This document shows positions 57,101 through 64,000 of a DNA stretch of 64,000 bases, piece after piece. The first letter of the stretch is position 1. Every line of letters starts with the position of its first letter. The DNA is from Candidatus Enterousia sp. (GTDB lineage Bacteria > Pseudomonadota > Alphaproteobacteria > Rs-D84): assembly GCA_045648945.1 (NCBI GenBank), contig JAZROX010000013.1, positions 2,507-66,506 on the forward strand, given 5' to 3'. The position numbers were made by a program.

Positions 57101-60100
57101 GTTGTTGCGGTCGCATTGATTGGTGTCTTTGCGTTGCGTGGATGTGGCGAAAGAACAATTAGTGCCGATGCGGCAATCAGTGATGTTTCCACGGATGCGG
57201 TGAACGGTGCGGATTTGCGTATCGCGGTTGTTCGTATGGATGCAATCCAAACAGATGCCAAGGCATTACAAGATTTACGCAAACAGAAAGAAAACTATGA
57301 AGACAAATTGCGTAATGAATTAGAGAAACAGCAAAAAGCATTGGAAAAAGAAAAGGCCGAAATCGAAAAGTCCCAGGATGTTTTATCGCGTGAGGCTTTG
57401 CAACGTCGCGTGGTTGAATACCAAGGCAAAGTTTCCAAATTGCAACGTGATTTGACCGAACGCGCCCAGGCGATTGATGCGGCTTTCCAACGCGCGTTGG
57501 CGAAAATCCAAGAAAATCATTTGGACCCAATTATCGATGCAATCATCGCGAAAAAGAATTTGTCTTTGGTTGTTGATGGTCGTTTTGCGCGTACGGGTGC
57601 AAATATTGAAAACCTGGATATCACAGATGACGTAATCAATTCTTTGAATAAAAAGGTTTCGTCTGTGAAAATGGAAACACCAAAGGGCTTTTAATAGTCG
57701 ATTGGTAACCAATCTTAGTTAAACCGGCGGTATTTCGCCGGTTTGGTTTTATATTGAGTTCGATTTTTTCCTGGCTATTTTAATTTGTTGTGGTTGTATT
57801 TGCGTAAAAAAAAGAGGTAAATATGATATCACAAAAATCAATCGAACTGCGTGCGGCGGATTTGGCCAGAACAGAACAAAGAATAATTGAAATAGAACGC
57901 AAATTGTGTCAGCAACAATCGATGCTGATTCAAATGATGCGGGAAATGATGGCAATCCGGTCAAACAAAACCAAACACGCGCCCACCATAGAGCAGGTCT
58001 TGGACCGTTTTACGACCAAAAAAGGCAAAGACAGCGAAGAAACAGGCCGTAAATACAGTGCAATATGCAAATATATACGTGCCACAGGCCTTACATTAAA
58101 AAATAAATATTCCGAATTGCATAACGAAAATGCACTTTTGCAAATAGTGCGCGCCATTAACGAACGGACCGATATCAAGGGTGACCAGAAAGTGCGGCAC
58201 GTGCGATGGTTAAACGAATTTGTGAAATTCGCCGTATTTGCGTATCCCGATATGTATAAAACCGACGTGCTGATTGGATTGCCGACAATAAAGCGAACAC
58301 CTAAAAGCGCACGACGACCACACACACCATATACGGATACCCAGTTAAAACGCATATTTGACCCATCGCGAAATTTTTTTCACAAATATCCAGATATGTT
58401 TTGGGCGTGTATGATTGCACTATTTACAGGGTCACGCAGGAACGCGGTATTTACATTACAATACAAAGACATACTGCAACGTGAAGGTTTTTGGTGCATA
58501 AATTTTATCGAAGATTGTCCGGGTATCAAAAGATTAAAAACCGAAGATTCCGAACGTTTGGTCCCCATGCATTCTGCATTGATAAAATTGGGATTCCTGG
58601 ATTATGTTCGGCAAAAACAACATAACGCGCCAACGGATTTCATATTTCAAAATATTTGTTTAAGCAAATGTGGCACGCTAAGTTCACATATAACACGAAA
58701 GTTTTTCTGTTTTTTAGAACAAATCGGTGTGCGTGGCGAAACCGTGGAACAATATGATTTTCATTCTTTTCGCAAAAACGCAAACATTATGATGGAACGC
58801 TGTGGCATAATGCGAACCTATATAGATAAAATAATCGGATGGCAGAGCAGAGGCAGCGAGGGTGAACGGTCTTATTCAAACTATACGATAAAGCAGTTGT
58901 CGGACCAATTGGAATTATTGCGTTACAAATGTCTGCGCGACGAATTCAAAGAATGGAAAAAAATAATGGCAAAAAAATAAACAAAATCCCAAAAAATTTT
59001 CAGTTGGGATTTTGTTGTAAGAAGTATAAAAATCCATTAATTCAAATTTGTTAAAAATTCAGGAAATGGATTTTCTTCTTCGTCGGTTGTGTCGGCGGAA
59101 TCGGATGAATCCGCAACGGGTGCCTCAACCGGTGTTTTATCTTTTGGGTCGCGGGTAGAATCAATTTTACCCTGTTCTTCATTTACAATACGACCATAAT
59201 GTTCCGCCGCCTGGAGCAAACGTTCACGTTCGATTTCATCCGTGGCCTGGCGTGCCTGGTCCATATATTGTTTGCGTTTTTGCCGCCATTTATGACAGCG
59301 TTGAATCATCATACCGACGGCCGACTGATTTTTTTTATTTGGCATTTTCTATCTTTTGTTTTAATGGAAATAAACTCTGAACTATGGACGTGACGCCCAA
59401 TCGTTCCAATCAAGCAAGCAAATTCTAAACCAAGTTAAAACCAATTGCAATATTTTTTTTCAATTGCTATGCTATACCCAAAAGGGGGGATTTTATATTT
59501 GCGGACACAACGCGGAAACTTTTTATTACAGGCATTATTGGCGCTAACACTGGTGTTTGCGTTTATACCGTTTTTCGCGCGGCGTTTGGCGTTGCGCGAT
59601 ATGGGGGCACAAATGTATTCCACCACTCGCCAGGTTGATGTTGCGCGCACTGCAGCCAAGATTTTTATTCGTGAAAATGCCGATAGTATCCCGTATGACC
59701 GCAGTATCGTTTCCGGGGATAATTTTTCGACTATGTTGGAACCGTATGGGTTGCCATTGGGGTTTGTTCCGCGCACCGCGTTGGGCCAAGATATCATTTT
59801 GGTCATAGATAAAACAAATACTGATATTTTTGCATTCTTGCGCCTGCGTGGTGGAAATTTAAGTATAGTGCAACGTGCAGAATTGGCGCGGCGCATCGGT
59901 TTCTTTGCGGCCTATGATGAAACCAGTCCCACGGGCGATATAGATATCGGAATTCAATTGGCGGATATGTATTCCGATGTTGTGCGTCGTAACGATAAAA
60001 ATCCGGACGCTTCGGGTTTTTTGACGGATTTAGATTTGGGCGGTTTTCGATTCGATAACGCGGCAAATATGTTGGCACATCGTGCAACGTTTGACACGGC

Positions 60101-63100: not shown

Positions 63101-64000
63101 CAAGATAATCGATTCAGTGAATCCTGATTTCTTTTGGGATGTTCAATCACGAACCGCAAATTTGGTTGATATAAACTCGCCAACATTATCGGATATGGCG
63201 TCGCGTGTGTTGCGGCGTGAATCTGTGTCGGGAACAACCTCGGCGCGAATATTTTCATCCGTGACATTGAACAAGAATGCGACGGTTGGTGATTACCTGA
63301 ATGCGATTCGTGAAATTGGGCAAAATGTCCGCGCAAAATATCAAAAGTTGAATTTAAAATAATTTATGCTATAAAGGTCAAAAAGCAATGAAGATAAAAT
63401 GTGAAGTTTGCAAAACAGAATATTCGATGCCGAACGCACCGTCGGGTCGCGTGCGGTGTGCGGTATGCGGGAATGTTTGGAATGTGTCATCTGGTTCGCG
63501 TCGTGGTGGGTTGATGATTTTCTTTGCATCGTTGTGCGCATTGCTTGCGGCAACTGTATTTGCGGTCGCGGTTATTGTGACTTCGCGTCGTGATGACCCA
63601 GAAAAGCGGCCATTGGTTGCAACAATAACGAATGTTTCAACAAATCAGGATAACGCCGGCACGCAACGCATAGTGGTTGATGGTACGGTGACAAATCGTT
63701 CGGATGATATATATGCATTTCCCGATTTGATAATCATTCTGTATGATGCGAATGGTTCGCCCCTTTCACGCCAAAAGTTTATGCCGTCGGCAACGCTATT
63801 GGATGCCGGTCAATCGGTCCGTTTTTCGCACACTTTGTCGGGTGATATGACGGGCGTAAAACGTGTCACGGTCGAATTGTCAGATGTAAATCAAGGAGAG
63901 AAGAAATGAAAAAAATAATTTTTGGAATCTTGGCGGCGTTTGTTCCGTATGTTGCGTGTTTGGCCGATAATCCGCCGGCCCCGCCACCCCCGGCCGTCCA

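What the first reader, a model, noticed from the sequence alone, without database searches (positions are those of the whole stretch)
59445..63362. Operon of three paralogous, unusually large proteins with prepilin-type N-termini and beta-helix-like bodies
The three N-termini read as follows. A: MRTQRG/NFLLQALLALTLVFAFIPFF. B: ..AAQRGG/GLVEVLLALVIISVATPF. C: ..HNTCRG/TVLIEFLLTIALAGTLLPF. Each has a short basic leader, a Gly, then a ~20-aa hydrophobic helix. Glu is at +5 in C and, depending on register, in B. Gln is at +5 in A, which recalls tip minor pilins that lack Glu5. The proteins are about 455, 399 and 437 aa, against 151 aa for the ordinary pilin at 55817. All share the motif L-[ND]-[LM]-G-G-x-[DR] (TDLDLGGFRFDN, RDLNMGGHDVYN, SALNLGGRDIIN). 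The motif is followed by about 200 aa of short T/S/N/G/V-rich strand repeats that look beta-helical. B and C also share a leader motif RIFS...C..RG. Gene starts overlap or abut (60853 against the stop at 60866, and ATGA at 62049-62052), implying translational coupling. No pilB, pilC, pilD or pilQ is present in the window. A zinc-ribbon/DUF3426-like gene follows and a tyrosine integrase precedes the operon. The products could be giant minor pilins or a tip complex, or a new fibre type exported through a type IV pilus or T2SS-like machine.
Basis: partly seen in the sequence, partly recalled or inferred. Interest (0 to 1): 0.7.

Follow-up and report, generated by a model that had tools for sequence, protein, structure and literature searches.

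The report
Three PilV-like pilus tip proteins
Three neighbouring genes in a tiny-genome gut bacterium (Candidatus Enterousia) encode very distant relatives of PilV, the adhesin on the thin pili of conjugative plasmids, so they probably form a cell-attachment pilus tip, although the machinery needed to build such a pilus was not found nearby.

Summary
Three translationally coupled genes (A 59499-60866, B 60853-62052, C 62049-63362) encode 455-, 399- and 437-aa proteins with prepilin-type N-termini and a shared L-[ND]-[LM]-G-G motif. They are not a new fibre type. Profile comparisons show that the first ~200-230 residues of all three match the constant region of PilV (Pfam Shufflon_N), the minor pilin and tip adhesin of IncI/R64-type conjugative type IVb pili (C 98.7%, B 97.0%, A 96.6%). 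The 151-aa gene at 55817 is a type IVb-class major pilin (98.0%). Gly(-1) and position +5 (Glu in B, C and the small pilin; Gln in A) are 98-100% conserved across ~80 species. The host is Ca. Enterousia (order Rs-D84), a gut/rumen alphaproteobacterium with a <1 Mb genome. At least 203 species genomes carry the locus. Differences from PilV: three fixed ancient paralogues, three mutually unrelated but conserved C-terminal domains, no shufflon, a chromosomal location, and no assembly genes in the window or within 10 kb in ~90 genomes. The beta-helix claim is unconfirmed. Most likely function: a tip adhesin complex for attachment to partner cells. Verdict: new variant of a known kind, moderate interest.

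The parts
59499..60866 (+). Gene A: PilV-family minor pilin paralogue, 455 aa. Leader MRTQRG, then NFLLQ (Gln at +5). It has its own conserved C-terminal domain ending in four invariant Cys.
   Evidence: ORF. TTG start with a Shine-Dalgarno sequence. 955 homologues. G6, Q11, P24 and C407/C429/C446/C454 are invariant. hhalign to PilV: 96.6%, E 6.2e-10. PilV HMM: 9e-6.
60853..62052 (+). Gene B: PilV-family minor pilin paralogue, 399 aa. Signal RG|GGLVE (Glu at +5). Overlaps A by 14 nt.
   Evidence: 990 homologues. G20, E25 and P38 are 98% conserved. 31 of 56 family members hit N_methyl. AlphaFold gives helix 23-77 plus a sheet at pLDDT 72-89. hhalign to PilV: 97.0%, E 1.1e-10.
62049..63362 (+). 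Gene C: PilV-family minor pilin paralogue, 437 aa. Signal RG|TVLIE (Glu at +5). ATGA overlap with B.
   Evidence: 531 homologues. G16, E21 and P34 are 100% conserved. tblastn against plasmids hits pilV genes only. hhalign to PilV: 98.7%, E 1.6e-16. PilV HMM: 4.8e-22. The exhaustive profile search reaches genuine Shufflon_N proteins.
60024..60059 (+). PilV signature motif in A (TDLDLGGFRFDN).
   Evidence: Aligned to PilV's TALDMGGNDINN and to the B and C motifs.
61444..61479 (+). PilV signature motif in B (RDLNMGGHDVYN).
62673..62708 (+). PilV signature motif in C (SALNLGGRDIIN), preceded by LYLWRVPS (compare PilV YLYRxQVPG).
55817..56272 (+). Candidate major pilin, 151 aa, type IVb class. Leader MKNESG, then RSLIE (Glu at +5). 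Conserved Cys111-Cys138 pair.
   Evidence: hhalign to plasmid type IVb major pilins/BfpA: 98.0%, E 1.7e-13 over 149 columns, with the Cys pair aligned. All PDB profile hits are type IV pilins, including TcpA. All 88 plasmid tblastn hits are major pilins. G6, S8, E11, G14 and A17 are 100% conserved. Found within 10 kb of the trio in 58 of 88 loci.
56274..56948 (+). OmpA-type peptidoglycan-binding lipoprotein immediately after the small pilin. A constant neighbour; a possible envelope anchor, but the link is not shown.
   Evidence: Pfam OmpA 2.8e-12; NCBIfam YiaD-type 7e-28. Adjacent to the small pilin in L001, L004, L006 and L100. Present in 57 of 88 loci.
63388..63909 (+). Zinc-ribbon/DUF3426 membrane protein. 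A conserved downstream neighbour with no evidence that it belongs to the system.
   Evidence: Pfam DUF3426 1.7e-7 and Zn_ribbon_4. Present in 86 of 88 loci.

Best explanation
A, B and C are three ancient paralogues of PilV, the large minor pilin that forms the adhesive tip of type IVb 'thin' pili.

Shown: each has a PilV-type N-terminal module of about 200-230 residues. This comprises a class III signal with Gly(-1), a hydrophobic helix of about 55 residues, a small alpha/beta domain, and the [YL]-[LY]-x-R...L-[ND]-[LM]-G-G signature. Each module is fused to a different, family-specific and conserved C-terminal domain. The 151-aa gene nearby is a type IVb-class major pilin.

Inferred: a prepilin peptidase encoded elsewhere in the ~0.9 Mb genome cuts after the conserved Gly. 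A, whose +5 residue is invariably uncharged Gln, sits at the very tip, where no Glu5 salt bridge is needed. B and C (Glu5) dock beneath it. The overlapping genes give roughly equal amounts of the three proteins, so they form a mixed tip or initiation complex on a filament of the small pilin. The three C-terminal domains bind a conserved surface ligand on a partner or host cell. In IncI plasmids PilV holds mating cells together; by analogy, this complex would give a metabolically dependent bacterium stable cell-cell contact. Where plasmids use a shufflon to swap PilV C-termini, this lineage hard-wires three different C-termini as separate genes.
For: - PilV homology: tblastn of C against 7.3 Gb of plasmids gives 40 records, and the listed hits all lie on annotated pilV genes, covering C residues 55-340. 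hhalign against 8 plasmid PilVs gives C 98.7% (E 1.6e-16), B 97.0% (1.1e-10) and A 96.6% (6.2e-10). Erwinia PilV finds C orthologues directly at E 1.5e-11. An exhaustive profile search of 1.84 billion representatives returns 225 relatives, and the only recurrent Pfam family among 48 remote ones is Shufflon_N (13 members, best 3.8e-74).
- Pilin features under selection: Gly(-1) and position +5 are 98-100% conserved across 81-83 orthologues. 31 of 56 B-family members hit N_methyl. The PDB profile hits of C are type IV pilins aligned at the G|xxxxE helix. The AlphaFold N-terminal modules show a long helix plus a sheet.
- Major pilin.
- Operon: the overlaps are present and conserved.
- Distribution: the trio is present in 87-88 of 88 loci and in at least 203 species genomes. 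A separate trio occurs in a Rickettsiales-type MAG.
- Conserved C-terminal halves.
- Lifestyle: Rs-D84 genomes are below 1 Mb and are proposed to depend on partner cells (PMC12306168).
- PilV role as an adhesin whose C-terminus selects the target: PMC9045228.
- Tip subunits that lack Glu5 (GspK, PilX): my own knowledge of the T2SS and type IVa literature.
Against: - No assembly ATPase, platform protein, secretin, PilO/P/M or A24 peptidase was found in the 64-kb window, or within 10 kb of the locus in about 90 genomes, using probes from two type IVb operons (best E 0.07).
- The one genomic survey of Rs-D84 reports type IV pili only for another lineage.
- None of the window proteins reaches Pfam's Shufflon_N or N_methyl thresholds.
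- The fold searches are not significant.
- The C-terminal domains have no recognisable fold or ligand-binding family, and the models are poor there.
- Cleavage, tip location, heterotrimer formation and the target ligand are all inferred.
Confidence: 0.6

Rival explanations
1. The four pilin-like proteins form a short periplasmic pseudopilus of a type II secretion-like or otherwise non-surface machine. A, B and C would be its cap rather than a surface adhesin.
For: The class III signals are compatible with pseudopilins. The best (non-significant) structural match of B is a T2SS pseudopilus subunit (9a1f_R, prob 0.84). JGI names one relative 'pseudopilin PulG'. One of three subunits lacks Glu5, as GspK does in the GspK-I-J cap (my own knowledge).
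Against: Profile homology points specifically to PilV and to type IVb major pilins/BfpA/TcpA, not to GspG-K. No Gsp family appears in Pfam or NCBIfam, apart from one sub-threshold GspH hit on the small pilin (E 0.21). No GspD/E/F is nearby.
Confidence: 0.12
2. The assembly machinery has been lost from these reduced genomes. A, B and C persist as uncleaved, inner-membrane-anchored periplasmic proteins that have been co-opted for an envelope function.
For: No machinery was found in any sequence examined. Type IV pili were not reported for Rs-D84. The genes sit among envelope housekeeping genes (LpxD, FabZ, Skp, OmpA, Lpt). The C-terminal halves are uniformly conserved, unlike typical fast-evolving adhesins.
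Against: Gly(-1) and Glu/Gln(+5) are the most conserved N-terminal positions in all four proteins across ~80 species. That pattern is hard to explain for a plain membrane anchor, but is expected for peptidase cleavage and filament packing. A dedicated major pilin with the disulphide pair is also retained. Only about 7% of a genome was inspected.
Confidence: 0.15
3. They are accessory adhesins of the type IV secretion system (a VirD4-type coupling protein is encoded 9 kb upstream). As in IncI plasmids, they would stabilise contact for T4SS-mediated transfer of DNA or effectors into target cells.
For: PilV's documented role is mating-pair stabilisation for an I-type T4SS. A VirD4/TraG coupling protein lies at 48321-50711 and near the locus in L006.
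Against: This refines the purpose of the best explanation rather than offering a different mechanism. No other T4SS genes are in the window. The coupling protein is not consistently adjacent.
Confidence: 0.1

Closest known systems
PilV of IncI1/IncI2 plasmids (R64, R721, TP114) and PAPI-1-type islands; Pfam Shufflon_N (PF04917)
   Same: Similar size (~400-460 aa). Class III signal with Gly(-1) and Glu or Gln at +5. The N-terminal constant module is homologous over about 200-230 residues, including the YLYR...ALDMGGNDINN signature. Modular design: a conserved N-terminus plus a distinct C-terminal domain. It accompanies a type IVb-class major pilin.
   Different: Only ~23-30% identity, and below Pfam's threshold. 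Three fixed paralogues instead of one gene with shufflon cassettes. No Rci recombinase and no sfx repeats. The C-terminal domains are unrelated to plasmid PilV C-termini and to each other, and are conserved rather than hypervariable. The genes are chromosomal, sit among housekeeping genes, and are not in a pilL-pilV operon.
CofB/TcpB/LngB, the large minor pilins of enteric type IVb pili (tip-located homotrimers that initiate assembly)
   Same: Large minor pilins of type IVb systems with a pilin-like N-terminal domain and extra C-terminal domains. A trimeric tip offers a precedent for a three-protein complex (Kawahara 2016 as cited in PMC9045228; otherwise my own knowledge).
   Different: No sequence match was detected. 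Those proteins form homotrimers of one gene product; here there are three different genes.
GspK-GspI-GspJ (T2SS) and PilV-W-X/FimU (type IVa) minor-pilin tip complexes
   Same: A set of several different minor pilins encoded together, in which one member lacks Glu5 and caps the filament (my own knowledge).
   Different: Those proteins are much smaller (except GspK) and belong to different families. No Pfam, NCBIfam or profile match to them was found here.
PilS (R64, S. Typhi), BfpA and TcpA type IVb major pilins (relevant to the 151-aa protein)
   Same: Profile match over the whole length, with the Cys pair aligned.
   Different: Shorter (151 aa against ~180-200) and with a very short 6-residue leader, which is more typical of type IVa. 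Arg at +1 is unusual.

Membership tests
PilV / Shufflon_N (type IVb minor pilin, tip adhesin) | Homology to the conserved N-terminal constant region, including the YLYR...ALDMGGNDINN signature | tested here: met
   hhalign: C 98.7% (E 1.6e-16), B 97.0% (1.1e-10), A 96.6% (6.2e-10). The HMM built from 8 plasmid PilVs hits C at 4.8e-22, B at 3.5e-10 and A at 9e-6. tblastn gives pilV-only hits. Reciprocal result: the C profile retrieves Shufflon_N proteins.
PilV / Shufflon_N (type IVb minor pilin, tip adhesin) | Scores above Pfam's curated threshold for PF04917 | tested here: not met
   The window proteins give no Shufflon_N hit at E <= 1. Only 1 of 38 C-family members (4e-4) and 1 of 56 B-family members (0.097) hit it.
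PilV / Shufflon_N (type IVb minor pilin, tip adhesin) | Prepilin-type signal: basic leader, Gly(-1), Glu (or Gln) at +5, hydrophobic helix | tested here: met
   98-100% conservation of these positions. Plasmid PilVs show both E5 and Q5. Remote relatives keep G and E at 90% or more.
PilV / Shufflon_N (type IVb minor pilin, tip adhesin) | C-terminal segments exchanged by a shufflon (sfx repeats plus Rci recombinase) | tested here: not met
   No repeat family lies around the genes. The integrase is in 1 of 88 loci and resembles generic integrases.
PilV / Shufflon_N (type IVb minor pilin, tip adhesin) | Encoded within a type IVb pil operon (secretin, ATPase, platform protein, peptidase, major pilin) | tested here: not met
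   Only the major pilin is nearby. Machinery probes found nothing in 1.66 Mb plus L100-L102. The rest of the genome could not be tested.
PilV / Shufflon_N (type IVb minor pilin, tip adhesin) | Located on the pilus and binds a receptor on target cells | not testable with these tools
   Needs microscopy and biochemistry.
Type IV pilins in general | Cleavage and N-methylation by an A24 prepilin peptidase | not testable with these tools
   No peptidase gene occurs in the sequence held.
Type IV pilins in general | Fold: a long N-terminal helix packed on an antiparallel sheet | tested here: inconclusive
   The AlphaFold models show this topology at pLDDT ~70-89 (B) and ~55-86 (C). The Foldseek matches are not significant: best is the T2SS pseudopilin 9a1f_R, E 0.45.
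Type IVb major pilin (for the 151-aa protein) | Full-length homology, class III signal, C-terminal disulphide pair | tested here: met
   hhalign 98.0%, E 1.7e-13, 149 of 151 columns, Cys pair aligned. TcpA and other pilins in the PDB. Pfam PilS and N_methyl are below threshold only.
T2SS tip pseudopilins GspK/I/J | Sequence or profile match to the Gsp minor pseudopilin families | tested here: not met
   A, B and C give no such hit in Pfam or NCBIfam at E <= 1.
Bactofilin-type / right-handed beta-helix bodies | Recognisable beta-solenoid domain in the C-terminal half | tested here: inconclusive
   Sub-threshold bactofilin hits in 13 of 56 B-family and 2 of 38 C-family members (best 3e-3). 2 of 48 remote relatives have a significant bactofilin domain (3.9e-8). 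Model confidence is below 50 in this region.

The most novel reading that the evidence does not exclude
Enterousia and related reduced-genome Alphaproteobacteria may have turned a conjugative-plasmid thin-pilus kit into a permanent chromosomal 'grappling' organelle. In this reading, three different PilV-derived proteins form a heterotrimeric tip with three conserved binding domains, which the cell uses to latch onto a specific partner cell that it depends on. The filament might even be assembled by a non-canonical or unrecognisably diverged machine, since no type IV pilus machinery has been reported for the order.
Probability: 0.15. Interest if true: 0.75.

Novelty: new variant of a known kind. 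Interest (0 to 1): 0.5.

Why it matters
These genes are labelled 'hypothetical' in hundreds of gut and rumen MAGs. Recognising them as PilV-type tip pilins, alongside a type IVb major pilin, gives the first concrete candidate for how Ca. Enterousia (order Rs-D84) contacts other cells. This is a widespread, uncultured lineage with a genome below 1 Mb that lacks most biosynthesis, and cell contact is the central open question about its lifestyle. The result also shows that the PilV module exists outside plasmids and shufflons, as fixed multi-gene sets with new C-terminal domains. That extends a family for which no structure has been solved. Retention of about 4 kb of these genes in a ~0.9 Mb genome across more than 200 species argues that the function is important.

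Tried and rejected
- Direct family scans (Pfam, NCBIfam) of A, B and C gave only sub-threshold N_methyl and bactofilin hits.
- Two AlphaFold models (B, C) were confident only for the N-terminal module. Foldseek against the PDB gave nothing significant. No PilV-family structure exists to match by sequence.
- The idea that the three 'bodies' are paralogous beta-helices was rejected for lack of evidence. The C-terminal halves show no profile similarity to one another or to PilV C-termini.
- The shufflon hypothesis was rejected: the integrase is unique to this genome and is not Rci-like, and there are no sfx-type repeats.
- Linked machinery was sought with ten, then sixteen, real type IVb machinery proteins against the window and 90 related loci. 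Nothing was found.
- tblastn of A against plasmids found nothing.
- The only paper on the clade's genomics has no held supplements, and the earlier Enterousia paper is not in the library.
- The promoter and terminator scans were at chance level.
- My first regex-based conservation count was circular, so I replaced it with alignment-based counts.
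Full report
**1. What is in the sequence**

Three ORFs lie head to tail on the + strand.
- A most likely starts at TTG 59499, 9 nt after AAAGGGGGGA. The mechanical ORF begins at 59445, and ATG 59469 is a possible alternative start.
- B starts at ATG 60853 behind GGAGGG and overlaps A's stop (60864-60866) by 14 nt.
- C starts at ATG 62049 in an ATGA overlap with B's stop and ends at 63362.
- The products are 455, 399 and 437 aa.
- The same 14-nt and 4-nt overlaps occur in relatives that share only 50-57% identity. The arrangement is therefore conserved and consistent with translational coupling.
- Promoter and terminator consensus scans were at chance level and add nothing.

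**2. The N-termini**

I extracted orthologues from 88 sources and aligned them without using any motif to select them.

| Protein | Gly(-1) | Position +5 | Conserved Pro |
|---|---|---|---|
| A | G6, 100% | Q11, 100% | P24, 100% |
| B | G20, 98% | E25, 98% | P38, 98% |
| C | G16, 100% | E21, 100% | P34, 100% |
| 151-aa protein (55817) | G6, 100% | E11, 100% | none |

- These are the most conserved positions in each N-terminus.
- For B the conserved register is RG|GGLVE. Relatives read RG|ASILE.
- Across all six-frame ORFs of at least 50 aa in the window, a generic class III signal pattern picks out only B, C and the small protein.
- 31 of 56 B-family members hit Pfam N_methyl below threshold.
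- Three of the four PDB hits of the C profile are type IV pilins aligned on this helix.

**3. Paralogy**

Pairwise BLAST shows only N-terminal similarity. Profile-profile comparison establishes homology:

| Pair | Probability | E-value | Columns |
|---|---|---|---|
| B-C | 98.4% | 4.3e-15 | 239 |
| A-C | 94.7% | 6.4e-8 | 192 |
| A-B | 94.6% | 7.2e-8 | 283 |

The L-[ND]-[LM]-G-G motifs align with one another. After that motif the three families are not detectably related (best pair A-B: 9% probability). The genes are therefore ancient paralogues that share an N-terminal module of about 200-250 residues and carry three different C-terminal domains.

**4. Identity**

Curated libraries gave no family above threshold. 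The link to PilV came from several independent searches.
- A six-frame search of 7.3 Gb of plasmids with C returned 40 records. The listed hits all lie on genes annotated 'pilV: shufflon system plasmid conjugative transfer pilus tip adhesin', and they cover C residues ~55-340.
- I aligned eight such PilVs. Their consensus, YLYRxQVPGHPELNxMxTALDMGGNDINN, matches C's LYLWRVPS...DATMxSALNLGGRDIxN.
- hhalign against this PilV profile gives C 98.7% (E 1.6e-16, 211 columns), B 97.0% (1.1e-10) and A 96.6% (6.2e-10).
- Erwinia pEA60 PilV finds C orthologues directly, with E down to 1.5e-11.
- A plain HMM of the eight PilVs hits C, B and A in the window at 4.8e-22, 3.5e-10 and 9e-6.
- In the reverse direction, an exhaustive HMMER search of 1.84 billion representatives with the C profile finds only 225 proteins at E <= 1e-3. 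The remote ones match only the N-terminal ~230 positions. Among 48 of them, the only recurrent Pfam family is Shufflon_N (13 members, best 3.8e-74).

PilV is the minor pilin of IncI thin pili. Its conserved N-terminus carries interchangeable C-terminal adhesin domains that select recipient cells (PMC9045228).

**5. The small protein**

All 88 of its plasmid tblastn hits are type IVb major pilins or BfpA, though each is individually weak. A profile of 40 orthologues matches a profile of six plasmid major pilins at 98.0% (E 1.7e-13) over 149 of 151 residues, with the Cys pair aligned. All seven of its PDB hits are type IV pilins, including TcpA. It is a type IVb-class major pilin. It is unusually short and has a 6-residue leader.

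**6. Structure**

- AlphaFold models of B and C are confident only for the N-terminal module. In B this is helix 23-77 plus a sheet at pLDDT 72-89; in C it is helix 13-69 plus a sheet at pLDDT 55-86.
- The S/T/N-rich central regions have pLDDT below 50.
- Foldseek gives nothing significant. The top match for B is a T2SS pseudopilin (E 0.45, prob 0.84).
- No PilV-family structure exists in the PDB by sequence.
- The beta-helix idea rests on composition, on sub-threshold bactofilin hits in 13 of 56 B-family and 2 of 38 C-family members, and on a significant bactofilin domain in 2 of 48 remote relatives. It remains open.

**7. Organism and distribution**

- All named homologues come from uncultured gut and rumen Alphaproteobacteria.
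- A scan of species-representative genomes found 203 genomes with a B relative. Their titles include Candidatus Enterousia, 'uncultured Rickettsiales' and RUG/RGIG rumen MAGs.
- Enterousia belongs to order Rs-D84. Its genomes are ~0.75-1.0 Mb, lack most biosynthesis and respiration, and are proposed to depend on partner cells. That paper reports type IV pili only for a different lineage (PMC12306168).
- Among 88 sources, A occurs in 87 and B and C in 88. DUF3426 occurs in 86 and the DUF4167-like gene in 85. The small pilin lies within 10 kb in 58, and the integrase occurs in 1.
- A more distant Rs-D84 relative keeps small pilin / A / B / C with larger proteins of 531, 455 and 653 aa.
- A Rickettsiales-type MAG has its own tandem trio of PilV-like genes in a different context.
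- Unlike plasmid PilVs, the C-terminal halves here are as conserved as the N-terminal halves.

**8. What is missing**

- Pfam scans of 52 window ORFs show housekeeping genes, a MacB/HlyD/TolC efflux set and a VirD4-type coupling protein, but no pilus machinery.
- tblastn with the secretin, PilO2, PilP, PilM, TcpQ, ATPases, platform proteins, lytic transglycosylase and A24 peptidases of two real type IVb operons found nothing better than E 0.07. The target was 1.66 Mb of Enterousia sequence plus L100-L102.
- I could not read the rest of any genome, so whether a peptidase and an ATPase exist elsewhere remains unknown.
- There is no shufflon. The integrase is unique to this genome and resembles generic integrases, and there is no sfx-like repeat family.

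**9. Mechanism**

Shown: PilV-family modules with class III signals under strong selection, a type IVb major pilin, a conserved coupled operon, and three distinct conserved C-terminal domains.

Inferred: cleavage at Gly(-1); A (Gln5) at the apex, by analogy with the Glu5-less tip subunits GspK and PilX (my own knowledge) and with Q5-type plasmid PilVs; B and C beneath it; a mixed tip complex on a filament of the small pilin; and adhesion to a conserved ligand on partner cells, possibly in concert with the T4SS.

I put the homology claim at about 0.9 and the full functional model at about 0.6. The rivals are a periplasmic pseudopilus, uncleaved membrane anchors left after loss of the machinery, and a dedicated T4SS accessory role. 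They are listed with their tests.

**10. Verdict**

They belong to the PilV superfamily at the profile level, and they fail three of PilV's contextual features: the Pfam threshold, the shufflon and the pil operon. I rate this a new variant of a known kind and of moderate interest. The main reason for the interest is that it gives a testable handle on how a widespread obligate gut symbiont attaches to other cells.

Noticed in passing
window 57823-58980 (integrase) and 54261-57694: The tyrosine integrase is found in only 1 of 88 related loci. In this genome the block dnaX / small pilin / OmpA / OmpH is inverted relative to relatives (L001, L004, L006, L100), and the integrase sits at one junction. 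This looks like a lineage-specific insertion and inversion.
   Followed up: partly
window 48321-50711: A VirD4/TraG-type type IV secretion coupling protein (796 aa). It also lies beside the FabZ-LpxD block in L006. No other T4SS genes are in the window.
   Followed up: partly
L004 14580-17675 (also L001, L006, L100; just beyond the window's end): A conserved protein of 1030-1240 aa with a signal peptide, many regularly spaced cysteines and C-terminal membrane segments lies downstream of the trio in all relatives examined. It has no family match.
   Followed up: no
window 59037-59345 (-): A small acidic DUF4167-like protein (~100 aa) is transcribed divergently from gene A. It is conserved in 85 of 88 loci.
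   Followed up: no
L044 (CAVGNU010000002.1): A contig whose record is titled 'Bacteroides fragilis isolate ... cleanbin' carries the Enterousia-type locus. The bin is probably mislabelled or contaminated.
   Followed up: no
L101 8646-12698: A 'Rickettsiales bacterium' MAG has its own tandem trio of PilV-like genes (443, 426 and 483 aa) between LexA/RecA and TruB/S15/PNPase. The three-gene arrangement is therefore older than the Enterousia clade.
   Followed up: partly
P0460, P0469, P0476, P0498, P0507 and others; L102 10001-13150: Proteins of 900-1200 aa carry the PilV-type N-terminal module. Some remote PilV-module relatives (2 of 48 each, lengths not checked) have phage tail collar or bactofilin domains. 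The one in L102 lies next to flagellar genes.
   Followed up: partly
window 14170-18485: Four consecutive ORFs after lptD (273, 258, 365 and 187 aa) have no Pfam match.
   Followed up: no
window 33023-37532 (-): A complete MacB-type ABC transporter, HlyD adaptor and TolC-like outer-membrane set, notable in such a small genome.
   Followed up: no
window 56274-56948: An OmpA-type peptidoglycan-binding lipoprotein always follows the small pilin gene. Besides YiaD-type models, it also matches the T4BSS lipoprotein IcmN/DotK model (E 7.7e-11), probably through the generic OmpA domain.
   Followed up: no
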